NCBI GenBank assembly: GCA_964016885.1
Contig: OZ024740.1
Coordinates: 394,258,001 to 394,322,000 of the forward strand
Source: Eledone cirrhosa
Lineage: Eukaryota
Direction: 5' to 3'
Length of the DNA stretch: 64,000 nucleotides
Of this stretch, positions 1,419 to 38,837 are shown piece by piece. The translations under genes and the position numbers were made by a program. The notes below the pieces were generated by a model. It was not told the DNA's origin. It was given only the letters and a program-made list of their open reading frames with translations, and ran no database searches. The stretch's first letter is position 1; the number at the start of each line of letters is the position of its first letter.

Positions 1419-3206
1419 GGGATATAATAATCGCTATTTTGTTTCTCATTAAGATCATTTCGAGATGTGGAGGGCGTAGAACAGTTTTTTAAAAAAAATT
1501 CCGAAATATACACAAGGAATTATAGTTATATGAACGACTTTTGTCAAAATGGTATGTAATTTGATAATCATATAGACGTTTTTGTTTGTTTTTTTATCTG
1601 ATTTTTATGTGCAGCTATTGTTTCGTTAGTTCACCATAGTAGTAAAATTTAGTACACAATTTCTTATGCAACCAACTTCAGAAGGCTTTTTTATAATTCT
1701 AAAAATAGATCTGGAAAACAACTACCTATTTTTCACGGCAGCTGCAAATATTCGCTAATTTACACACATTTGAAAAATATTTTGACACGTTATAGTCTTC
1801 ACATTTGTGAAAGTAAAGAAGGACACAGACAAATCGCTTTGCTGAGATTTTTAGTTGACAATTTACATAGTATTAACATTTTTAAGGTGAAGTTTGTTCC
1901 AAATATCACTGGTTGAAAATAAATGCACTAAATTTCTTAATACCTGGAATTCACACCGAAGGATACTTTTCAAATATGGGTCATGGCATTACTACACCGA
2001 TTACTTTCCCAACTGAGGTTCAGTAAATCTACCTTTTCGAAATATCTTGAAAATGTTTAAAATTCTATTTGAATATTTCGTTTCGCATAAATTCCGAATC
2101 ATTATATACTAAAGTGTTTTGATGCTGCCTAGTATCCTGGTAGTTACGAAAGTTTAGCGGGTAAATTACTTAACAAAATATGATAAATCTTCTTTAATAC
2201 GTAACTCTCTGAAACTTGAGAAATAAAAATGAGAAGACATTAAATGACATCACGTATAGGATGAACTGATGGTATATAGAGTGAAGGTTATGTCCAGAAT
2301 AAATTATTTATGTTCGAAACGTATTGAATAAGTTTCGTATAACTGAATTTATCAGTGTCTATCAAATTATGAGATTCTTCAAGAAAATATAAAAGTCAGT
2401 GGCTGAGAAGAGGATTTATTCAACGGTATGGATATCAAAGGTCTCAGTAAAAACTTTTCTGTAATATAATACTAGATTAAATAATGGATGAATGGCGGTA
2501 GAAGAAACGAAATCAATAAAATTTTACTCCTTCAAAATAAGAAATACAATATTACTGCATTAAATATGAATACTGAGTAATGATAATAATAATTGGCTCT
2601 CACACAGTCTTCAGGTCTGAGATCTACAGATAGAAAATAGGAATGTTACCACTAATATACATTTACCAGTGGCATTATCTTTCAAGCATCTACTGTATTA
2701 TACCACAGTCAAATCGATATTTTTATTCGGTGTTGGCATTCATGCTATATTTCTTATCCTATATAGACTTATCCACATGTCTCTCACAGTAATCCGATGA
2801 CTTATCACGTTCGAATTTTCCTCAGTAACTAGCTTTTATTCAAACGAAAGCCGAGCTTATCCAACACAACTAGTGTATTACAGTGAATAACTCATTAGCT
2901 TACTCGAAATGTAGTCGTCGTTTTATCATAGCGAAACATGTCATAATTTCTCAAGAACCTGCAGCGTTATCTCCTCGGAACCTCTGTAGGAAATTATTGC
3001 CCGACCTCAAAGAAAATAGCAGTTTAGTTTTACAAACACCTACTTTCATATTCTAATGAAATACGACGATTTGTATTGCAGAAAGTTTCAGCCGGAAGTT
3101 GTGATGATATGCCCGAATATTTACAAGCGCATAATAATCGTGAGTTAAAACCGATTGCAGGTGCTTCACTTTGTCAGAACAATTTATATAGATGTCGAAG
3201 GCAGAT

Positions 3207-4933
3207 ATCGCTATAGAATAGAATACGTCACGTATTACAATTTGAGATTCTCGATAAAAGCAAGGGAAGTAATCTCAAATTGTAATACGTGACGTATTCT
3301 ATTCTATAGCGATTGGGTCTTCAAAATGTTTATTATAAACATACAGAATATTTTCGAATATTCTATGTTTGTCTTCACATATATATCGCTATTTCAGAGC
3401 ATTAAATCCAAATTCTAATTTCTGCCGGACCGACAACCGCTCTTTCAAACCAGTTCCTGTACACAGCTAAGTATTCTATAAGTCTCTAGCTGTGTCGTTC
3501 TCGATAAAAGCATTGGATATGTAATCCTGATGATTTCTAATAAGAATGAAACGCGTAGGTTACTTCCCTTGCTTTTATCGAGAATCTCAAATTGTAATAC
3601 GTGACGTATTCTATTCTATAGCGATTGGGTCTTCAAAATGTTTATTATAAACATACAGAATATTTTCGAATATTCTATGTTTGTCTTCACATATATATCG
3701 CTATTTCAGAGCATTAAATCCAAATTCTAATTTCTGCCGGACCGGCTACCGCTCTTTCAAACCAGTTCCTGTACACAGCTAAGTATTCTATAAGTCTCTA
3801 GCTGTGTCGTTCTCGATAAAAGCATTGGATATGTAATCCTGATGATTTCTAATAAGAATGAAACGCGTAGGTTACTTCCCTTGCTTTTATCGAGAATCTC
3901 AAATTGTAATACGTGATGTATTCTATTCTATAGCGATTGGGTCTTCAAAATGTTTATTATAAACATACAGAATATTTTCGAATATTCTATGTTTGTCTTC
4001 ACATATATATCGCTATTTCAGAGCATTAAATCCAAATTCTAATTTCTGCCGGACCGGCTACCGCTCTTTCAAACCAGTTCCTGTACACAGCTAAGTATTC
4101 TATAAGTCTCTAGCTGTGTCGTTCTCGATAAAAGCATTGGATATGTAATCCTGATGATTTCTAATAAGAATGAAACGCGTAGGTTACTTCCCTTGCTTTT
4201 ATCGAGAATCTCAAATTGTAATACGTGACGTATTCTATTCTATAGCGATTGGGTCTTCAAAATGTTTATTATAAACATACAGAATATTTTCGAATATTCT
4301 ATGTTTGTCTTCACATATATATCGCTATTTCAGAGCATTAAATCCAAATTCTAATTTCTGCCGGACTGGCTACCGCTCTTTCAAACCAGTTCCTGTACAC
4401 AGCTAAGTATTCTATAAGTCTCTAGCTGTGTCGTTCTCGATAAAAGCATTGGATATGTAATCCTGATGATTTCTAATAAGAATGAAACGCGTAGGTTACT
4501 TCCCTTGCTTTTATCGAGAATCTCAAATTGCAATACGTGACGTATTCTATTCTATAGCGATTGGGTCTTCAAAATGTTTATTATAAACATACAGAATATT
4601 TTCGAATATTCTATGTTTGTCTTCACATATATATCGCTATTTCAGAGCATTAAATCCAAATTCTAATTTCTGCCGGACCGACAACCGCTCTTTCAAACCA
4701 GTTCCTGTACACAGCTAAGTATTCTATAAGTCTCTAGCTGTGTCGTTCTCGATAAAAGCATTGGATATGTAATCCTGATGATTTCTAATAAGAATGAAAC
4801 GCGTAGGTTACTTCCCTTGCTTTTATCGAGAATCTCAAATTGTAATACGTGACGTATTCTATTCTATAGCGATTGGGTCTTCAAAATGTTTATTATAAAC
4901 ATACAGAATATTTTCGAATATTCTATGTTTGTC

Positions 4934-4937
<4 letters not shown>
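3207..4937 (+). mobile_element. 312-bp hammerhead-bearing tandem array (~5.3 units) with a short inverted 5' arm (3207-3272); retrozyme/Penelope-like non-autonomous element
   Basis: GTAATCCTGATGA recurs at 3521, 3833, 4145, 4457 and 4769 (period 312). 3207-3272 is the reverse complement of part of the unit. The right end runs into (TA)n. Confidence 0.85.
3521..3563 (+). ncRNA. Minimal type I hammerhead ribozyme (also at 3833, 4145, 4457, 4769)
   Basis: GTAATC-CTGATGA-TTTCT AATA AGAAT-GAAA-CGCG-TA-GGTTAC. Stem I is GUAAUC/GGUUAC with one G-U pair, stem II is UUCU/AGAA, stem III is palindromic, and the cleavage triplet is GUA. Confidence 0.85.
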
Positions 4938-4966
<29 letters not shown>

Positions 4967-4968
<2 letters not shown>

Positions 4969-5505
4969 ATGTATAGAATTGTATCTTGGGTCCTGGATCA
5001 TGAACTCTGGGAAGGATTTTGCCACCAGAAACGTCCAAGCACAGTCGGCTTGCAACAAGATTGATCTAGTTTGGCGCTCAAATCTTTCCAACCACAACAA
5101 ATTCAGACTCTTCCAAGTATCAATTCAACCAATCTTGGAAGTGAAATATGGACGCTTTCATCAAAACAACAAAAGCGCCTTGGTGTCACCTACACTCGCC
5201 TACTTCGACGCATTCAGAATATAAGCTGGTGACATCTAATTTTGAAAGAAATATATGCCGGCCTCCCTCGCATATCCGTCGTTGTACGTAAAAGGAGAGT
5301 AAGATTTGCTGGCCACTGCCATCGTGCCACCTCTGAGGCTGTGTATCATTTGTGCAGTCACTAATGACAGGGGACGCAAGCTCTCCTATCCTGATGGCAT
5401 CTCCAGAGATTCTGGTATTGCAATCCAGGACTTGGCAAAGGCAATGGACGACAGACCCACGTGGAGATCAATTGTTGAGTCAATTACGGCTGGGGTCACC
5501 GGATG

Positions 5506-5584
<79 letters not shown>

Positions 5585-5603
5585 TTACTACTACTACTAC
5601 TAC
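4967..5603 (+). pseudogene. 5'-truncated RTE-like LINE 3' end with (TAC)n tail
   Basis: YLGSWIMNSGKDF...SACNKIDLVWRSNLSNHNKFRLFQVSIQPIL and RFAGHCHR...AMDDRPTWR, followed by (TAC)n at 5506-5603. Confidence 0.75.
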
Positions 5604-26910: not shown

Positions 26911-29900
26911 AGAGTGTGAGTAAGTACCGGTTCAACGGAGACGATAAAAACAAATAACGAAACGAAATTAAATTTCGTTTCGTTTGTAACTCACTTTTGT
27001 ATGACTGACGCTTAAACAATTAAGTTAAAGATGTACATCCATATATGTATACTGAAATACTAGTATGTATATGAATACACACACGTATACATATGTAGAT
27101 GTACCAAGTTTTTTCACTGGTCACTTTACTGTGAGTGGCCAGCTATTCTGTATGTAAACACACAGACAAACCGGTTTTTAGAGTCATACTGGTTTTTGAG
27201 GAAACACCTTTCCTCTATTCTCCAGAAAGCCAGACAAGGAATATTGAACTAGTTTCGTTGTTGTTACAACTCATCAGCAATATTTACCTATCTTCCGGCC
27301 TCTCTAGAGAATCGTAAAAGCACATATCGTTATATGCTTTTTCTATGAAAATTAGTAGTGGGCAGACTAATTTGCATAGAGTGTGAGTAAGTACCGGTTC
27401 AACGGAGACGATAAAAACAAATAACGAAACGAAATTAAATTTCGTTTCGTTTGTAACTCACTTTTGTATGACTGACGCTTAAACAATTAAGTTAAAGATG
27501 TACATCCATATATGTATACTGAAATACTAGTATGTATATGAATACACACACGTATACATATGTAGATGTACCAAGTTTTTTCACTGGTCACTTTACTGTG
27601 AGTGGCCAGCTATTCTGTATGTAAACACACAGACAAACCGGTTTTTAGAGTCATACTGGTTTTTGAGGAAACACCTTTCCTCTATTCTCCAGAAAGCCAG
27701 ACAAGGAATATTGAACTAGTTTCGTTGTTGTTACAACTCATCAGCAATATTTACCTATCTTCCGGCCTCTCTAGAGAATCGTAAAAGCACATATCGTTAT
27801 ATGCTTTTTCTATGAAAATTAGTAGTGGGCAGACTAATTTGCATAGAGTGTGAGTAAGTACCGGTTCAACGGAGACGATAAAAACAAATAACGAAACGAA
27901 ATTAAATTTCGTTTCGTTTGTAACTCACTTTTGTATGACTGACGCTTAAACAATTAAGTTAAAGATGTACATCCATATATGTATACTGAAATACTAGTAT
28001 GTATATGAATACACACACGTATACATATGTAGATGTACCAAGTTTTTTCACTGGTCACTTTACTGTGAGTGGCCAGCTATTCTGTATGTAAACACACAGA
28101 CAAACCGGTTTTTAGAGTCATACTGGTTTTTGAGGAAACACCTTTCCTCTATTCTCCAGAAAGCCAGACAAGGAATATTGAACTAGTTTCGTTGTTGTTA
28201 CAACTCATCAGCAATATTTACCTATCTTCCGGCCTCTCTAGAGAATCGTAAAAGCACATATCGTTATATGCTTTTTCTATGAAAATTAGTAGTGGGCAGA
28301 CTAATTTGCATAGAGTGTGAGTAAGTACCGGTTCAACGGAGACGATAAAAACAAATAACGAAACGAAATTAAATTTCGTTTCGTTTGTAACTCACTTTTG
28401 TATGACTGACGCTTAAACAATTAAGTTAAAGATGTACATCCATATATGTATACTGAAATACTAGTATGTATATGAATACACACACGTATACATATGTAGA
28501 TGTACCAAGTTTTTTCACTGGTCACTTTACTGTGAGTGGCCAGCTATTCTGTATGTAAACACACAGACAAACCGGTTTTTAGAGTCATACTGGTTTTTGA
28601 GGAAACACCTTTCCTCTATTCTCCAGAAAGCCAGACAAGGAATATTGAACTAGTTTCGTTGTTGTTACAACTCATCAGCAATATTTACCTATCTTCCGGC
28701 CTCTCTAGAGAATCGTAAAAGCACATATCGTTATATGCTTTTTCTATGAAAATTAGTAGTGGGCAGACTAATTTGCATAGAGTGTGAGTAAGTACCGGTT
28801 CAACGGAGACGATAAAAACAAATAACGAAACGAAATTAAATTTCGTTTCGTTTGTAACTCACTTTTGTATGACTGACGCTTAAACAATTAAGTTAAAGAT
28901 GTACATCCATATATGTATACTGAAATACTAGTATGTATATGAATACACACACGTATACATATGTAGATGTACCAAGTTTTTTCACTGGTCACTTTACTGT
29001 GAGTGGCCAGCTATTCTGTATGTAAACACACAGACAAACCGGTTTTTAGAGTCATACTGGTTTTTGAGGAAACACCTTTCCTCTATTCTCCAGAAAGCCA
29101 GACAAGGAATATTGAACTAGTTTCGTTGTTGTTACAACTCATCAGCAATATTTACCTATCTTCCGGCCTCTCTAGAGAATCGTAAAAGCACATATCGTTA
29201 TATGCTTTTTCTATGAAAATTAGTAGTGGGCAGACTAATTTGCATAGAGTGTGAGTAAGTACCGGTTCAACGGAGACGATAAAAACAAATAACGAAACGA
29301 AATTAAATTTCGTTTCGTTTGTAACTCACTTTTGTATGACTGACGCTTAAACAATTAAGTTAAAGATGTACATCCATATATGTATACTGAAATACTAGTA
29401 TGTATATGAATACACACACGTATACATATGTAGATGTACCAAGTTTTTTCACTGGTCACTTTACTGTGAGTGGCCAGCTATTCTGTATGTAAACACACAG
29501 ACAAACCGGTTTTTAGAGTCATACTGGTTTTTGAGGAAACACCTTTCCTCTATTCTCCAGAAAGCCAGACAAGGAATATTGAACTAGTTTCGTTGTTGTT
29601 ACAACTCATCAGCAATATTTACCTATCTTCCGGCCTCTCTAGAGAATCGTAAAAGCACATATCGTTATATGCTTTTTCTATGAAAATTAGTAGTGGGCAG
29701 ACTAATTTGCATAGAGTGTGAGTAAGTACCGGTTCAACGGAGACGATAAAAACAAATAACGAAACGAAATTAAATTTCGTTTCGTTTGTAACTCACTTTT
29801 GTATGACTGACGCTTAAACAATTAAGTTAAAGATGTACATCCATATATGTATACTGAAATACTAGTATGTATATGAATACACACACGTATACATATGTAG

Positions 29901-32168
29901 ATGTACCAAGTTTTTTCACTGGTCACTTTACTGTGAGTGGCCAGCTATTCTGTATGTAAACACACAGACAAACCGGTTTTTAGAGTCATACTGGTTTTTG
30001 AGGAAACACCTTTCCTCTATTCTCCAGAAAGCCAGACAAGGAATATTGAACTAGTTTCGTTGTTGTTACAACTCATCAGCAATATTTACCTATCTTCCGG
30101 CCTCTCTAGAGAATCGTAAAAGCACATATCGTTATATGCTTTTTCTATGAAAATTAGTAGTGGGCAGACTAATTTGCATAGAGTGTGAGTAAGTACCGGT
30201 TCAACGGAGACGATAAAAACAAATAACGAAACGAAATTAAATTTCGTTTCGTTTGTAACTCACTTTTGTATGACTGACGCTTAAACAATTAAGTTAAAGA
30301 TGTACATCCATATATGTATACTGAAATACTAGTATGTATATGAATACACACACGTATACATATGTAGATGTACCAAGTTTTTTCACTGGTCACTTTACTG
30401 TGAGTGGCCAGCTATTCTGTATGTAAACACACAGACAAACCGGTTTTTAGAGTCATACTGGTTTTTGAGGAAACACCTTTCCTCTATTCTCCAGAAAGCC
30501 AGACAAGGAATATTGAACTAGTTTCGTTGTTGTTACAACTCATCAGCAATATTTACCTATCTTCCGGCCTCTCTAGAGAATCGTAAAAGCACATATCGTT
30601 ATATGCTTTTTCTATGAAAATTAGTAGTGGGCAGACTAATTTGCATAGAGTGTGAGTAAGTACCGGTTCAACGGAGACGATAAAAACAAATAACGAAACG
30701 AAATTAAATTTCGTTTCGTTTGTAACTCACTTTTGTATGACTGACGCTTAAACAATTAAGTTAAAGATGTACATCCATATATGTATACTGAAATACTAGT
30801 ATGTATATGAATACACACACGTATACATATGTAGATGTACCAAGTTTTTTCACTGGTCACTTTACTGTGAGTGGCCAGCTATTCTGTATGTAAACACACA
30901 GACAAACCGGTTTTTAGAGTCATACTGGTTTTTGAGGAAACACCTTTCCTCTATTCTCCAGAAAGCCAGACAAGGAATATTGAACTAGTTTCGTTGTTGT
31001 TACAACTCATCAGCAATATTTACCTATCTTCCGGCCTCTCTAGAGAATCGTAAAAGCACATATCGTTATATGCTTTTTCTATGAAAATTAGTAGTGGGCA
31101 GACTAATTTGCATAGAGTGTGAGTAAGTACCGGTTCAACGGAGACGATAAAAACAAATAACGAAACGAAATTAAATTTCGTTTCGTTTGTAACTCACTTT
31201 TGTATGACTGACGCTTAAACAATTAAGTTAAAGATGTACATCCATATATGTATACTGAAATACTAGTATGTATATGAATACACACACGTATACATATGTA
31301 GATGTACCAAGTTTTTTCACTGGTCACTTTACTGTGAGTGGCCAGCTATTCTGTATGTAAACACACAGACAAACCGGTTTTTAGAGTCATACTGGTTTTT
31401 GAGGAAACACCTTTCCTCTATTCTCCAGAAAGCCAGACAAGGAATATTGAACTAGTTTCGTTGTTGTTACAACTCATCAGCAATATTTACCTATCTTCCG
31501 GCCTCTCTAGAGAATCGTAAAAGCACATATCGTTATATGCTTTTTCTATGAAAATTAGTAGTGGGCAGACTAATTTGCATAGAGTGTGAGTAAGTACCGG
31601 TTCAACGGAGACGATAAAAACAAATAACGAAACGAAATTAAATTTCGTTTCGTTTGTAACTCACTTTTGTATGACTGACGCTTAAACAATTAAGTTAAAG
31701 ATGTACATCCATATATGTATACTGAAATACTAGTATGTATATGAATACACACACGTATACATATGTAGATGTACCAAGTTTTTTCACTGGTCACTTTACT
31801 GTGAGTGGCCAGCTATTCTGTATGTAAACACACAGACAAACCGGTTTTTAGAGTCATACTGGTTTTTGAGGAAACACCTTTCCTCTATTCTCCAGAAAGC
31901 CAGACAAGGAATATTGAACTAGTTTCGTTGTTGTTACAACTCATCAGCAATATTTACCTATCTTCCGGCCTCTCTAGAGAATCGTAAAAGCACATATCGT
32001 TATATGCTTTTTCTATGAAAATTAGTAGTGGGCAGACTAATTTGCATAGAGTGTGAGTAAGTACCGGTTCAACGGAGACGATAAAAACAAATAACGAAAC
32101 GAAATTAAATTTCGTTTCGTTTGTAACTCACTTTTGTATGACTGACGCTTAAACAATTAAGTTAAAGA

Positions 32169-35120
32169 TGTGTTTACATACAGAATAGCTGGCCACTCAC
32201 AGTAAAGTGACCAGTGAAAAAACTTGGTACATCTACATATGTATACGTGTGTGTATTCATATACATACTAGTATTTCAGTATACATATATGGATGTACAT
32301 CTTTAACTTAATTGTTTAAGCGTCAGTCATACAAAAGTGAGTTACAAACGAAACGAAATTTAATTTCGTTTCGTTATTTGTTTTTATCGTCTCCGTTGAA
32401 CCGGTACTTACTCACACTCTATGCAAATTAGTCTGCCCACTACTAATTTTCATAGAAAAAGCATATAACGATATGTGCTTTTACGATTCTCTAGAGAGGC
32501 CGGAAGATAGGTAAATATTGCTGATGAGTTGTAACAACAACGAAACTAGTTCAATATTCCTTGTCTGGCTTTCTGGAGAATAGAGGAAAGGTGTTTCCTC
32601 AAAAACCAGTATGACTCTAAAAACCGGTTTGTCTGTGTGTTTACATACAGAATAGCTGGCCACTCACAGTAAAGTGACCAGTGAAAAAACTTGGTACATC
32701 TACATATGTATACGTGTGTGTATTCATATACATACTAGTATTTCAGTATACATATATGGATGTACATCTTTAACTTAATTGTTTAAGCGTCAGTCATACA
32801 AAAGTGAGTTACAAACGAAACGAAATTTAATTTCGTTTCGTTATTTGTTTTTATCGTCTCCGTTGAACCGGTACTTACTCACACTCTATGCAAATTAGTC
32901 TGCCCACTACTAATTTTCATAGAAAAAGCATATAACGATATGTGCTTTTACGATTCTCTAGAGAGGCCGGAAGATAGGTAAATATTGCTGATGAGTTGTA
33001 ACAACAACGAAACTAGTTCAATATTCCTTGTCTGGCTTTCTGGAGAATAGAGGAAAGGTGTTTCCTCAAAAACCAGTATGACTCTAAAAACCGGTTTGTC
33101 TGTGTGTTTACATACAGAATAGCTGGCCACTCACAGTAAAGTGACCAGTGAAAAAACTTGGTACATCTACATATGTATACGTGTGTGTATTCATATACAT
33201 ACTAGTATTTCAGTATACATATATGGATGTACATCTTTAACTTAATTGTTTAAGCGTCAGTCATACAAAAGTGAGTTACAAACGAAACGAAATTTAATTT
33301 CGTTTCGTTATTTGTTTTTATCGTCTCCGTTGAACCGGTACTTACTCACACTCTATGCAAATTAGTCTGCCCACTACTAATTTTCATAGAAAAAGCATAT
33401 AACGATATGTGCTTTTACGATTCTCTAGAGAGGCCGGAAGATAGGTAAATATTGCTGATGAGTTGTAACAACAACGAAACTAGTTCAATATTCCTTGTCT
33501 GGCTTTCTGGAGAATAGAGGAAAGGTGTTTCCTCAAAAACCAGTATGACTCTAAAAACCGGTTTGTCTGTGTGTTTACATACAGAATAGCTGGCCACTCA
33601 CAGTAAAGTGACCAGTGAAAAAACTTGGTACATCTACATATGTATACGTGTGTGTATTCATATACATACTAGTATTTCAGTATACATATATGGATGTACA
33701 TCTTTAACTTAATTGTTTAAGCGTCAGTCATACAAAAGTGAGTTACAAACGAAACGAAATTTAATTTCGTTTCGTTATTTGTTTTTATCGTCTCCGTTGA
33801 ACCGGTACTTACTCACACTCTATGCAAATTAGTCTGCCCACTACTAATTTTCATAGAAAAAGCATATAACGATATGTGCTTTTACGATTCTCTAGAGAGG
33901 CCGGAAGATAGGTAAATATTGCTGATGAGTTGTAACAACAACGAAACTAGTTCAATATTCCTTGTCTGGCTTTCTGGAGAATAGAGGAAAGGTGTTTCCT
34001 CAAAAACCAGTATGACTCTAAAAACCGGTTTGTCTGTGTGTTTACATACAGAATAGCTGGCCACTCACAGTAAAGTGACCAGTGAAAAAACTTGGTACAT
34101 CTACATATGTATACGTGTGTGTATTCATATACATACTAGTATTTCAGTATACATATATGGATGTACATCTTTAACTTAATTGTTTAAGCGTCAGTCATAC
34201 AAAAGTGAGTTACAAACGAAACGAAATTTAATTTCGTTTCGTTATTTGTTTTTATCGTCTCCGTTGAACCGGTACTTACTCACACTCTATGCAAATTAGT
34301 CTGCCCACTACTAATTTTCATAGAAAAAGCATATAACGATATGTGCTTTTACGATTCTCTAGAGAGGCCGGAAGATAGGTAAATATTGCTGATGAGTTGT
34401 AACAACAACGAAACTAGTTCAATATTCCTTGTCTGGCTTTCTGGAGAATAGAGGAAAGGTGTTTCCTCAAAAACCAGTATGACTCTAAAAACCGGTTTGT
34501 CTGTGTGTTTACATACAGAATAGCTGGCCACTCACAGTAAAGTGACCAGTGAAAAAACTTGGTACATCTACATATGTATACGTGTGTGTATTCATATACA
34601 TACTAGTATTTCAGTATACATATATGGATGTACATCTTTAACTTAATTGTTTAAGCGTCAGTCATACAAAAGTGAGTTACAAACGAAACGAAATTTAATT
34701 TCGTTTCGTTATTTGTTTTTATCGTCTCCGTTGAACCGGTACTTACTCACACTCTATGCAAATTAGTCTGCCCACTACTAATTTTCATAGAAAAAGCATA
34801 TAACGATATGTGCTTTTACGATTCTCTAGAGAGGCCGGAAGATAGGTAAATATTGCTGATGAGTTGTAACAACAACGAAACTAGTTCAATATTCCTTGTC
34901 TGGCTTTCTGGAGAATAGAGGAAAGGTGTTTCCTCAAAAACCAGTATGACTCTAAAAACCGGTTTGTCTGTGTGTTTACATACAGAATAGCTGGCCACTC
35001 ACAGTAAAGTGACCAGTGAAAAAACTTGGTACATCTACATATGTATACGTGTGTGTATTCATATACATACTAGTATTTCAGTATACATATATGGATGTAC
35101 ATCTTTAACTTAATTGTTTA
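32169..35120 (+). mobile_element. 467-bp hammerhead tandem array, inverted right arm (~6.3 units; ribozyme sense on plus strand)
   Basis: Reverse complement of the left arm, with a switch at TGT microhomology 32169-32171. It ends at TTGTTTA into (TA)n. Confidence 0.92.
32514..32558 (+). ncRNA. Minimal type I hammerhead ribozyme (6 copies, every 467 bp, to 34849-34893)
   Basis: AATATTGCTGATGAGTTGTAACAACAACGAAACTAGTTCAATATT. Confidence 0.88.
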
Positions 35121-35278: not shown

Positions 35279-35558
35279 TATATATATAAACGGAAAAAAT
35301 GAAATGAAATTTCATTTGCCCCTCTTAGTACGGCTGTTACTTAAATATAAGTAAGTATACGTACATACATATATGTATACAGACGTACAGTAGTATGTAT
35401 ATATATATACATACATTCACACATATATATATATATGTACGTATGGATTCACCAAACATTTATTATAATGCTCGGTGTGTTTGTAAACAAACATCCCGTA
35501 TAAAGCCGCAGTGTCTAGCAACCACCGTTGCTCGTTTGTTCAACACTGACAAAGGAAT

Positions 35559-35597
35559 GTTGTACTAGTTTCAAGCTTGTTAGCTATCGTCAGCAAC
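35559..35597 (-). ncRNA. Minimal hammerhead ribozyme
   Basis: GTTG-CTGACGA-TAGCT AACA AGCTT-GAAA-CTAG-TA-CAAC. Confidence 0.75.
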
Positions 35598-36029
35598 GTA
35601 TACCTTCCTGCCAGATTGTTGAACGTCTGAAAGTATATACTATCCTTATGCATATTAACGGCTGAGTAGCCCAATTTGCATATCGACACTACGGCTTAAT
35701 ACGGGATGTTTGTTTACAAACACACCGAGCATTATAGTAAATGTTTGGTGAATCCATACGTACATATATATATATGTGTGCATGTATGTATATATATATA
35801 CATACTACTGTACGTCTGTATACATATATGTATGTACGTATACATACTTATATTTAAGTAACAGCAGTACTAAGAGCGGGAAAGAAATTTCGTTTCATTT
35901 TTTCCGTTTATCGTTTTCGGTGCACCCGGCCGATTAACCCACTCGATATGCAGATTGGGCTGCTCAGCCGTTAATATGCATAAGGAAAGTATATACTTTC
36001 AGACGTTCAACCATCTGGCAGGAAGGTAT

Positions 36030-36072: not shown

Positions 36073-36439
36073 TCCTTTGTCAGTGTTGAACAAACGAGCA
36101 ACGGTGGTTGCTAGACACTGCGGCTTTATATGGGATGTTTGTTTACAAACACACCGAGCATTATAATAAATATTCGGTGAATCCATACGTACATATATAT
36201 ATGTGTGCATGTATGTATATATATATATATACATACTACTGTACGTCTGTATACATATATGTATGTACGTGTACATACTTATATATATATATATATGCAT
36301 ATATATATATATATATATATATATTCCACTGGCCGTTGACTAGCCAATACGGAGCCACAAGATCGATGTGATGGATATTCCTGTTGACGGCAGTAATGAT
36401 AGTGGTACTTGTATTGATGGTGGTGGGAGTGGGTAGTGT

Positions 36440-38720
36440 TGGTGGTGAGGCAGGTCACTGGTGATGGTGGTAGTGGTGGTGGTGAAGGAGGTCACTGGTG
36501 ATGGTGGTGGTGGTGGTGAGTGAGGTCACTGGTGATGGTGGTGGTGGTGGTGAAGGAGGTCACTGGTGATGATGGTGGTGGTGGTGGTGAAGGAGGTCAT
36601 TGGTGATGGTGGTGGTGGTGGTGAAGGAGGTCACTGGTGATGATGGTGGTGGTGGTGAAGGAGGTCACTGGTGATGGTGGCGGTGGTGGTGAAGGAGGTC
36701 ACTGGTGATGGTGGCGGTGGTGGTGAAAGAGGTCACTGGTGATGGTGGCGGTGGTGGTGAAGGAGGTCACTGGTGATGGTGGCGGTGGTGGTGAAGGAGG
36801 TTACTGGTGATGGTGGCGGTGGTGGTGAAAGAGGTCACTGGTGATGGTGGCGGTGGTGGTGAAGGAGGTCACTGGTGATGGTGGCGGTGGTGGTGAAGGA
36901 GGTCACTGGTGATGGTGGCGGTGGTGGTGAAGGAGGTCACTGGTGATGGTGGCGGTGGTGGTGAAGGAGGTCACTGGTGATGGTGGTGGTGGTGGTGAAG
37001 GAGGTCACTGGTGATGGTGGCGGTGGTGGTGAAGGAGGTCACTGGTGATGGTGGTGGTGGTGGTGAAGGAGGTCACTGGTGATGGTGGCGGTGGTGGTGA
37101 AGGAGGTCACTGGTGATGGTGGCGGTGGTGGTGAAGGAGGTCACTGGTGATGATGGTGGTGGTGGTGGTGAAGGAGGTCACTGGTGATGGTGGTGGTGGT
37201 GGTGAAAGAGGTCACTGGTGATGGTGGTGGTGGTGGTGAAGGAGGTCACTGGTGATGGTGGTGGTGGTGGTGAAGGAGGTCACTGGTGATGGTGGTGGTG
37301 GTGGTGAAGGAGGTCACTGGTGATGGTGGTGGTGGTGGTGAAGGAGGTCACTGGTGATGGTGGTGGTGGTGGTGAAGGAGGTCACTGGTGATGGTGGTGG
37401 TGGTGGTGAAGGAGGTCACTGGTGATGGTGGTGGTGGTGGTGAAGGAGGTCACTGGTGATGGTGGCGGTGGTGGTGAAGGAGATCACTGGTGATGGTGGT
37501 GGTGGTGGTGGTGAGGCAGGTCACTGGTGATGGTGGTGGTGGTGAAGGAGGTCACTGGTGATGGTGGTGGTGGTGGTGGTGGTGAAGGAGGTCACTGGTG
37601 ATGGTGGTGAGGGAGGTCACTGGTGATGGTGGTGGTGGTGGTGGTGGTGAAGGAGGTCACTGGTGATGGTGGTGGTGGTGGTGAGGCAGGTCACTGGTGG
37701 TGGTGGTGGTGGTGGTGAAGGAGGTCACTGGTGATGGTGGTGGTGGTGGTGGTGGTGAAGGAGGTCACTGGTGATGGTGGTGGTGGTGGTGAAGGAGGTC
37801 ACTGGTGAAGGTGGTGGTGGTGGTGGTGGTGAAGGAGGTCACTGGTGATGGTGGTGGTGGTGGTGAGGCAGGTCACCGGTGGTGGTGGTGGTGAAGGAGG
37901 TCACTGGTGATGGTGGTGGTGGTGGTGGTGGTGAAGGAGGTCACTGGTGATGGTGGTGGTGGTGGTGAAGGAGGTCACTGGTGATGGTGGTGGTGGTGGT
38001 GAAGGAGGTCACTGGTGATGGTGGTGGTGGTGGTGAAGGAGGTCACTGGTGATGGTGGTGGTGGTGGTGAAGGAGGTCACTGGTGATGGTGGCGGTGGTG
38101 GTGAAGGAGGTCACTGGTGATGGTGGTGGTGGTGGTGAAGGAGGTCACTGGTGATGGTGGTGGTGGTGGTGAAGGAGATCACTGGTGATGGTGGTGGTGG
38201 TGGTGAAGGAGGTCACTGGTGATGGTGGTGGTGGTGGTGAAGGAGGTCACTGGTGATGGTGGTGGTGGTGGTGAAGGAGGTCACTGGTGATGGTGGTGGT
38301 GGTGGTGAAGGAGGTCACTGGTGATGGTGGCGGTGGTGGTGAAGGAGGTCACTGGTGATGGTGGCGGTGGTGGTGAAGGAGGTCACTGGTGATGGTGGCG
38401 GTGGTGGTGAAGGAGGTCACTGGTGATGGTGGTGGTGGTGGTGAAGGAGGTCACTGGTGATGGTGGTGGTGGTGGTGAGGCAGGTCACTGGTGATGGTGG
38501 TGGTGGTGGTGAAGGAGGTCACTGGTGATGGTGGTGGTGGTGGTGGTGGTGGTGAAGGAGGTCACTGGTGATGGTGGTGGTGGTGGTGAGGGAGGTTACT
38601 GGTGATGGTGGTGGTGGTGGTGATGAGGGAGGTCACTGGTAATGGTGATGGTGGCGGTAAGGGAGGTTACTGGTAATGGTGATGGTAGTGGTGAGGGAGG
38701 TCACTGGTGATGGTGGAGGT
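36440..38720 (+). repeat. 34-bp G-rich minisatellite GAAGGAGGTCACTGGTGAT(GGT)n, ~65 copies
   Basis: Direct sequence. The GGT count varies per unit. Confidence 0.95.
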
Positions 38721-38837
38721 GGTGGAGGTTAGGAAGCCCCCTGGTGTTGGCGGTCGTGGCAGTGAGGAGGCCGCAGGTGGTGGGGGTGAGTAGGCTGCTG
38801 GTAGTTGCTGATTGTGGGTTGTGTAGTGGTTTTGCAA

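What the first reader, a model, noticed from the sequence alone, without database searches (positions are those of the whole stretch)
3207..4937. Independent 312-bp hammerhead array whose ribozyme is clamped by a 15-bp outer helix
Seen: five hammerheads (GUA site, CGCG stem III). Each is flanked by TTCTCGATAAAAGCA and TGCTTTTATCGAGAA, which extend stem I past an internal loop. The array has a 66-bp inverted 5' arm, and its 3' end falls where the unit's own ACATATATAT meets genomic (TA)n. Units 1 and 5 share GACAACC while units 2-4 have GGCTACC. Inference: this is a second, sequence-unrelated family using the same pathway. The internal loop may contact loop II, and the internal AU repeat may be the priming site.
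Basis: partly seen in the sequence, partly recalled or inferred. Interest (0 to 1): 0.72.

Follow-up and report, generated by a model that had tools for sequence, protein, structure and literature searches.

The report
Two-armed hammerhead retrozyme, Penelope footprint
This is one of well over a hundred young genomic insertions of a 312-base repeat that carries a predicted self-cutting RNA (a retrozyme, a known kind of genomic parasite), and its copies sit as back-to-back arms that almost always start at two different fixed points, one per end, which likely means that a Penelope-type jumping-gene enzyme copied the RNA from both sides of a DNA cut.

Summary
In detail: five type I hammerhead cores in a 312-bp tandem array, a 15-bp helix extending stem I, a 66-bp inverted arm. 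It is a new family of animal non-LTR retrozyme. The outer helix is real (4 of 13 pairs compensated in a related family) but ordinary: other hammerhead repeats here have one too. Helix III is a 2-nt-loop palindrome, so cleavage is predicted in tandem dimers, not monomer circles. Across the genome, insertions are two tail-out arms in (TA)n whose outer ends lie at unit position ~132 or ~168; 38 of 38 tail-out junction pairs have one of each. The AU stretch can explain only the 132 site. Autonomous Neptune-type Penelope-like elements (PLEs) here show the same one-short-one-long layout, which matches the published PLE 'tail'. Best reading: a PLE enzyme primes both cut DNA ends on this RNA and copies it for several rounds. 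A circular template is likely, not shown. No RNA data; no PLE with sequence similarity found. This copy's left end is atypical. The scan reported the same architecture before on other DNA of this genome (310- and 592-nt units); a 310-nt sibling is about 95% identical.

The parts
3207..3272 (-). Inverted (left) arm: unit positions 68 to 3; its outer end is atypical (no (TA)n, not at 132 or 168); its inner end lies 2 nt from the cleavage site and shares 2 nt with the right arm
3271..4937 (+). Right arm: 5.34 tandem units, from unit position 26 to the short 3' site (132)
3498..3584 (+). First hammerhead with extended stem I: outer helix 3498-3512/3570-3584, internal loops, stem I 3521-3526/3558-3563, core 3527-3557; repeated every 312 bases (five copies)
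3551..3556 (+). Palindromic helix III hexamer, predicted to pair with the same hexamer of the next unit (double hammerhead)
3558..3869 (+). One monomer, cleavage site to cleavage site (312 nt); predicted linear or circular RNA
3689..3725 (+). Unit positions 132-168: the 36-nt 'tail' between the two fixed 3' ends; the AU run is positions 134-141 (3691-3698)
3432..3438 (+). GACAACC variant (unit positions 188 and 190 changed), also at 4680-4686
4938..4966 (.). (TA)n run at the right junction, likely the target; 29 nt
4981..5505 (+). Neighbour, not part of the element: 5'-truncated LINE fragment with (ACT)n behind it

Best explanation
The array is one insertion of a young, dispersed 312-nt non-LTR retrozyme family whose copies are two tail-out arms with one end at unit position ~132 and the other at ~168; it is likely mobilised in trans by a Neptune-type Penelope-like element whose enzyme would cut both strands of a (TA)n target and prime reverse transcription from both DNA ends, one at each fixed RNA site. 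Steps: (1) tandem transcripts are predicted to self-cleave as double hammerheads, releasing 312-nt monomers (inferred from folding and precedent); (2) monomers would be ligated to circles whose hammerhead is quiet because helix III cannot form alone, while the 15-bp helix closes the molecule (inferred); (3) the PLE protein would bind the stem-loop region at positions 61-168, the part most alike between related families (inferred); (4) each arm runs through the cleavage site for up to 22 units (shown), most simply by copying a circle round and round (inferred, about 60%); (5) the two cDNAs are joined head to head at scattered positions, often by 1-7 nt of microhomology (shown in sequence).
For: Architecture: of 38 other loci, 34 are two-armed and tail-out; of the 33 with both ends readable, 30 have one end at 116-141 and the other at 159-172. 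Genome-wide exact junctions: 143 at 132, 126 at 168; on contigs C1-C10, 38 of 38 tail-out pairs within 12 kb are mixed, binomial p 7e-12 (this set overlaps the 33). One template per event: 22 of 38 loci carry a variant in every pass that covers it, including both arms, three of them seen at one locus only. PLEs present: 10,596 GIY-YIG candidates, 150 scored; 3 of 3 proteins scanned carry RT plus C-terminal GIY-YIG with a CxxC linker. Two PLE loci (L135, L144) are themselves tail-out pairs with one short and one long end; PLE family D has a sense hammerhead with the same U.U at the base of stem II and a palindromic helix III, and ends at cleavage +121-123 and about +160-162. Literature: a purified PLE cuts and extends both strands, prefers AT-rich DNA and starts at two internal RNA sites that bound the 30-40 bp tail (PMC11167929, main text); inverted 5' copy, tail often at one end only, (TA)n bias (PMC8557442, passages); dimer cleavage of such hammerheads (PMC4209133, passages). 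Folding: double-hammerhead fold -111.7 against -94.5 kcal/mol for two single folds; in the circle the outer helix has probability 0.94-1.0, stem II 0.07-0.08, helix III 0.0.
Against: No PLE with sequence similarity to the unit among the 50 GIY-YIG loci examined, so the partner is inferred from layout. No cleavage assay. This copy's left end is at position 68 without (TA)n. Units 1 and 5 share two linked changes that units 2-4 lack, and L062, L063, L065 and L049 are mosaics too: a single unchanging monomer circle does not predict that. Five of 70 inner ends lie within 3 nt of the cleavage site (expected 1.6, p 0.02), a hint that some templates were linear. In vitro, the anole PLE used uncleaved RNA and showed no difference in start site between strands. 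The 38 loci were the best-scoring hits, so they are biased to young, near-identical copies. 118 of 194 exact junctions had no exact tail-out partner.
Confidence: 0.8

Rival explanations
1. Same PLE machinery and two-sided priming, but the template is a linear, uncleaved multimer transcript of a donor array, not a monomer circle.
For: Mosaic arrays, including this one; slight excess of inner ends at the cleavage site (5 of 70); uncleaved RNA was the dominant substrate in vitro and hammerhead mutants still inserted (PMC11167929); 8 of 9 Xenopus dimers did not cleave in vitro (bioRxiv 10.64898/2026.07.22.740005).
Against: Arms of up to 22 units need equally long donors; locus-private variants run through all passes of both arms; the predicted fold favours cleavage in multimers. 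The mosaic sites could come from short template switches or misreading at position 190.
Confidence: 0.3
2. Single units were inserted and the arrays then grew at the DNA level (satellite-like unequal exchange), as proposed for vertebrate retrozymes.
For: Scenario given in bioRxiv 10.64898/2026.07.22.740005 (discussion); recurrent shared changes between non-adjacent units in L062.
Against: Both arms of one insertion are multimeric, end at fixed RNA positions and meet at scattered inner points; arrays are dispersed over many contigs at 98-100% identity.
Confidence: 0.07
3. A LINE enzyme inserted it by twin priming, with the AU run annealing to the (TA)n target (closest to the first reader's priming idea).
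For: The short site lies next to an AU run here (8 of 9 positions match (TA)n) and in the related family; LINEs are common.
Against: The 168 site has no AU run yet is used about as often (126 against 143); twin priming as I recall it gives a variable second start, not a fixed one; no poly(A) tail; PLEs of this genome show the same two-end pattern.
Confidence: 0.05

Closest known systems
Metazoan non-LTR retrozymes (Cervera and de la Pena 2020, PMC7229834; parts 2-4 of 6 read, supplement not readable)
   Same: Tandem non-coding units of 150-450 bp with a type I hammerhead, GC below 50%, self-paired predicted circle; axolotl HHR_Amex1 has a one-pair palindromic helix III and HHR_Amex2 a U.U mismatch at the base of helix II, both seen together here; PLEs proposed as mobilisers.
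   Different: New sequence. That paper's main text has no occurrence of 'inverted', 'tail' or 'microsatellite'; the two-armed layout and fixed ends are not described there. Expression and circles are shown there, not here.
EN+ Penelope-like elements, Neptune type (Craig et al. 2021, PMC8557442, passages; Frangieh et al. 2024, PMC11167929, main text and methods)
   Same: Inverted 5'-truncated copy, partial tandems, 30-40 bp tail often at one end only, AT-rich or (TA)n targets, two internal RT start sites, both strands extended, hammerhead near the 3' end.
   Different: No ORF; both arms multimeric; a strict one-short-one-long rule (38 of 38), whereas the in vitro work saw no strand difference in start site; no sequence similarity to the PLEs sampled.
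Vertebrate retrozymes as PLE derivatives (Li et al., bioRxiv 10.64898/2026.07.22.740005; parts 1-3 of 5 read)
   Same: Co-occurrence with PLEs, similar unit length and repeat numbers.
   Different: Their link rests on pLTR homology and they favour local amplification; here the link rests on insertion footprint, and no pLTR homology was found.
Newt satellite 2 and ASBVd double hammerheads (PMC6155905 and PMC4209133, passages)
   Same: Weak palindromic helix III, predicted cleavage as a dimer and a quiet monomer.
   Different: Dimer cleavage is only predicted here.

Membership tests
Type I hammerhead ribozyme (canonical metazoan) | Core CUGANGA, GAAA, UH with open stem I | tested here: met
   Rfam HH9 only below cut-off (20.6 of 52 bits)
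Type I hammerhead ribozyme (canonical metazoan) | Helix I 6 bp, helix II 4 bp, helix III 1-2 bp with palindromic loop | tested here: met
   against the description in PMC4209133; stem II opens with U.U instead of G10.1-C11.1
Type I hammerhead ribozyme (canonical metazoan) | Loop 1-loop 2 tertiary contact | tested here: inconclusive
   U at +7 unpaired and A at the end of loop II are present; the loop II bases before it vary among subfamilies; no 3D test
Type I hammerhead ribozyme (canonical metazoan) | Self-cleavage | not testable with these tools
   needs an assay
Non-LTR retrozyme | Tandem 150-450 bp units, one type I hammerhead each | tested here: met
Non-LTR retrozyme | Non-coding, no LTR | tested here: met
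   no ORF of 130 aa or more over the array; no terminal direct repeat other than the unit
Non-LTR retrozyme | Dispersed multicopy family | tested here: met
   874 exact matches of a 27-nt internal pattern; 499 candidates, 39 scored
Non-LTR retrozyme | Expressed as monomeric linear and circular RNA | not testable with these tools
   see Tried and rejected
Penelope-like insertion footprint | Inverted 5'-truncated copy next to a tandem | tested here: met
   34 of 38 other loci and the window
Penelope-like insertion footprint | 30-40 bp tail between two 3' ends | tested here: met
   132 and 168, 36 nt apart; the window's own left end does not fit
Penelope-like insertion footprint | AT-rich or microsatellite target | tested here: met
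   (TA)n-type flanks at nearly all outer ends; compound microsatellites continue on both sides in L033, L035, L037, L051, L059
Penelope-like element (autonomous) | ORF with RT and GIY-YIG | tested here: not met
   the element is non-autonomous
Non-autonomous derivative of a named PLE | Sequence similarity to a PLE pLTR or 3' end | tested here: inconclusive
   none among 50 of 10,596 candidate GIY-YIG loci; only layout matches family D

The most novel reading that the evidence does not exclude
These arrays are a genomic record of an asymmetric Penelope enzyme pair that holds one small RNA circle, starts one cDNA at position 132 and the other at 168 on the two ends of a double-strand cut, and rolls round the circle from both sides; the hammerhead works as a switch that cuts only in multimers, so the monomer circle survives as template. 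This would explain the PLE 'tail', the inverted 5' copy and retrozyme tandems by one mechanism.
Probability: 0.45. Interest if true: 0.72.

Novelty: new member of a known kind. Interest (0 to 1): 0.45.

Why it matters
How animal retrozymes get into DNA has been proposed (PLE enzymes, circular template) but, in the papers I read, not shown; the later steps of PLE insertion are also called unvalidated. A 312-nt RNA with two mapped start sites, hundreds of near-identical units and candidate Neptune-type enzymes in the same genome is a compact substrate to test both. The strict pairing of start sites is a constraint that the published in vitro work did not report.

Tried and rejected
Empty-site test through the neighbouring LINE: failed, the insertion lies outside the LINE (0 of 29 LINE copies match the left flank) and the left flank is unique. 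Empty site from a related organism: one contig follows the window from 2402 to 3208 and then runs 410 letters unlike the arm, but its letters were not shown; a second, shorter lay placed nothing for that run, so the length of the original (TA)n, and whether TA was added during insertion, stay open. No RNA holder listed: no evidence on expression either way; two small-share holders were laid and matched only the repeat part. Telomerase-like synthesis of (TA)n from the AU run: considered, not favoured, because most junctions lack the C that such copying would include and compound microsatellites continue on both sides. Genome search with the 467-bp unit returned nothing (very common words are skipped), so its ends were seen at two loci only. 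MAFFT misplaced the 3' strand between families, so pairs were counted in fixed register by script, without shuffle controls. miRNA-family hits at 3208-3312 are below cut-off and reflect the DNA inversion. Paper searches found no report of two-armed retrozyme insertions; the library lacks most subscription papers, the supplement of PMC7229834 could not be read and the figure supplements of PMC11167929 gave no text hits, and both may bear on novelty.

Full report
Observation. The array is as described: period 312, 5.4 copies, 99% matches; five hammerhead cores with predicted cleavage after 3557, 3869, 4181, 4493 and 4805; the two 15-mers on either side of each core; a 66-bp arm at 3207-3272 that is the exact reverse complement of unit positions 3-68 (all unit positions count from the cleavage site); GACAACC in units 1 and 5. 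The right junction is at position 132, one base before the C that precedes the AU run, followed by 29 nt of (TA)n. Rfam has no hit at gathering score and a weak HH9 match.

The ribozyme. It fits the published description of the usual metazoan type I hammerhead: helix I of 6 bp, helix II of 4 bp, helix III of 1-2 bp with a palindromic loop, inefficient as monomer and active as dimer (PMC4209133, passages). Stem II opens with U.U, as in axolotl HHR_Amex2, which cleaved 22% as a monomer and much better as a dimer (PMC7229834). Folding two neighbouring hammerheads gives the inter-unit helix III a probability of 0.46-0.61 and the single form 0.0; the forced double fold is -111.7 against -94.5 kcal/mol. 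In the circular monomer the outer helix is near certain (0.94-1.0) while stem II (0.07-0.08) and helix III (0.0) are absent. So the helix is best read as the stem that closes the monomer and sets up the double hammerhead. It is unchanged in 445 cores from 94 partly overlapping locus records, and in the commonest form of a related family 4 of 13 pairs change on both sides in the same register; 13 of 26 cores of that older family keep 12 or 13 pairs, the rest are shifted by indels or truncated. This is one lineage split, without shuffle controls. Extended stem I also occurs in the 467-bp family and other hammerhead repeats, so it is not a special device. An unpaired U seven bases after the cut and an A ending loop II fit the known tertiary contact (PMC11875169, passages); untested.

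The family. The genome is 3.0 Gb; the unit has 499 candidate places, 39 scored, at 98-100% identity on many contigs, and an internal 27-nt pattern matches 874 times. A 310-nt sibling differs by a 2-nt deletion and about a dozen substitutions (13 of 16 loci examined); it is probably the 310-nt family of earlier scan notes, which I could not compare by sequence. A more distant family shares positions 61-156 at 76% (1,429 candidates) and the same two ends, +132 and +167. A second organism holds the family at high depth, and its contig for this locus leaves the window at 3208, consistent with an empty site.

The footprint. Of 38 other loci, 34 are two arms pointing outwards and 4 are single; in 30 of the 33 two-armed loci with both ends readable, one end is at 116-141 and the other at 159-172; exceptions are L031, L042 and L056. 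Exact junctions number 143 at 132 and 126 at 168 (first 100 of each listed). On contigs C1-C10, where both lists are complete (97 and 97), 41 pairs lie within 12 kb: 38 are tail-out and all 38 are mixed (p 7e-12); the other 3 are not tail-out. Flanks are (TA)n at nearly all outer ends, and compound microsatellites continue on both sides at several loci, so the target pre-existed there. Inner joints are scattered; 5 of 70 lie within 3 nt of the cleavage site (p 0.02). The AU run adjoins only the short site, so it may help one primer but does not define the system. The window's copy is atypical on the left: position 68, no (TA)n, 2 nt of microhomology; deletion or mis-priming could not be told apart.

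Template. In 22 of 38 loci a variant is present in every pass that covers it, usually in both arms; three are seen at one locus only. That points to one RNA species per event, copied for several rounds (up to 22 units, L062). Against a pure monomer circle: the window, L049, L062, L063 and L065 are mosaics. GACAACC occurs 24 times in the genome; it is fixed in a 312-nt subfamily (3 of 16 loci examined), whose flanking markers are missing from window units 1 and 5. Position 190 varies between passes in 7 of 39 loci against a mean of 0.45 per position (139 events over 312 positions). Short template switches, misreading at the foot of a GC hairpin, or a multimer template all remain open.

The enzyme. 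GIY-YIG candidates number 10,596; I examined 50 loci. Three of 3 proteins scanned have RT plus C-terminal GIY-YIG (RT just under the Pfam cut-off) and most have a CxxC linker, the mark of Neptune and Nematis clades; 'Neptune-type' rests on that motif, not on a tree. Family C has two 3' ends about 69 nt apart, like the 467-bp array (ends at 234 and 303), and L135 is a tail-out pair with one of each. Families B and D have ends about 38-39 nt apart; D carries a sense hammerhead with U.U at the base of stem II and a palindromic helix III, ends at +121-123 and about +160-162, and L144 is a tail-out pair with one short and one long end. No significant sequence similarity to the 312-nt unit was found, so D is a candidate by layout only.

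Comparison. Retrozymes are known, with PLEs proposed as mobilisers (PMC7229834; bioRxiv 10.64898/2026.07.22.740005). [quoted passage not shown] What I did not find in print (searches; text look-ups; supplements partly unseen) is this footprint on a retrozyme and the strict pairing of ends. I had this reading before opening the scan's notes; they report the same architecture for 310-, 316-, 318- and 592-nt units of this genome and are not independent support.

Verdict. A real, young retrozyme family of a known kind with a clear Penelope footprint. The 15-bp helix is ordinary; the interest lies in the one-short-one-long rule and the testable substrate. Confidence 0.8 in PLE-driven two-sided priming, about 0.6 in a circular template; interest 0.45.

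Noticed in passing
window 26477-35120: 467-bp hammerhead array, 12 cores on the minus strand and 6 on the plus strand, tail-out, ends at unit positions 303 and 234 (69 nt apart, like PLE family C); a short tail-out copy in L140 5238-5457 has similar ends.
   Followed up: partly
window 23553-25219: 492-bp repeat, also tail-out with (TA)n on both sides; holds CTGATGA and an upstream GAAA but my type I scan found no hammerhead; may be another topology.
   Followed up: no
window 25890-26345: Small tail-out remnant of the 3' end of PLE family B (92-98% to L142 and L146), between two (TA)n runs and next to the 467-bp array.
   Followed up: partly
window 19354-19408, 23167-23213, about 35518-35638: Single hammerhead-like motifs of three other repeat families between (TA)n runs; relatives seen in several fetched loci.
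   Followed up: no
window 3433-3435 and 4681-4683; L041, L042, L062, L063, L065, L066: Unit position 190 differs between passes of one array in 7 of 39 loci, far above other positions; possible RT pause, modified base or template switch.
   Followed up: partly
L101:2442-2864: Related retrozyme family with a different hammerhead (stable helix III) but the same outer helix, the same 61-156 region and the same two ends.
   Followed up: partly
L146:5216-5289, L139:7110-7168, L135:183-208: Third family with an almost identical CTGATGA-stem II-GAAA part, seen only as short tail-out pieces.
   Followed up: no
L035 and L059 flanks: About 90-100 nt of compound microsatellite appears on both sides of the insertion, possibly a long target duplication; L056 has two long ends and mirror-image flanks.
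   Followed up: no
L130, L135, L138 (PLE family C 3' UTR): The untranslated region repeats about 22 nt of the ORF's last codons.
   Followed up: no
window 4981-5603 and 44679-45242: 5'-truncated LINE fragment with (ACT)n (1,040 candidates, copies 85-88% alike) and an ORF piece that looks like a non-LTR endonuclease region (recalled resemblance, not scanned).
   Followed up: partly
window 36432-38725 and 52354-55649: G-rich tandem arrays (34 bp x 66, 73 bp x 45).
   Followed up: no
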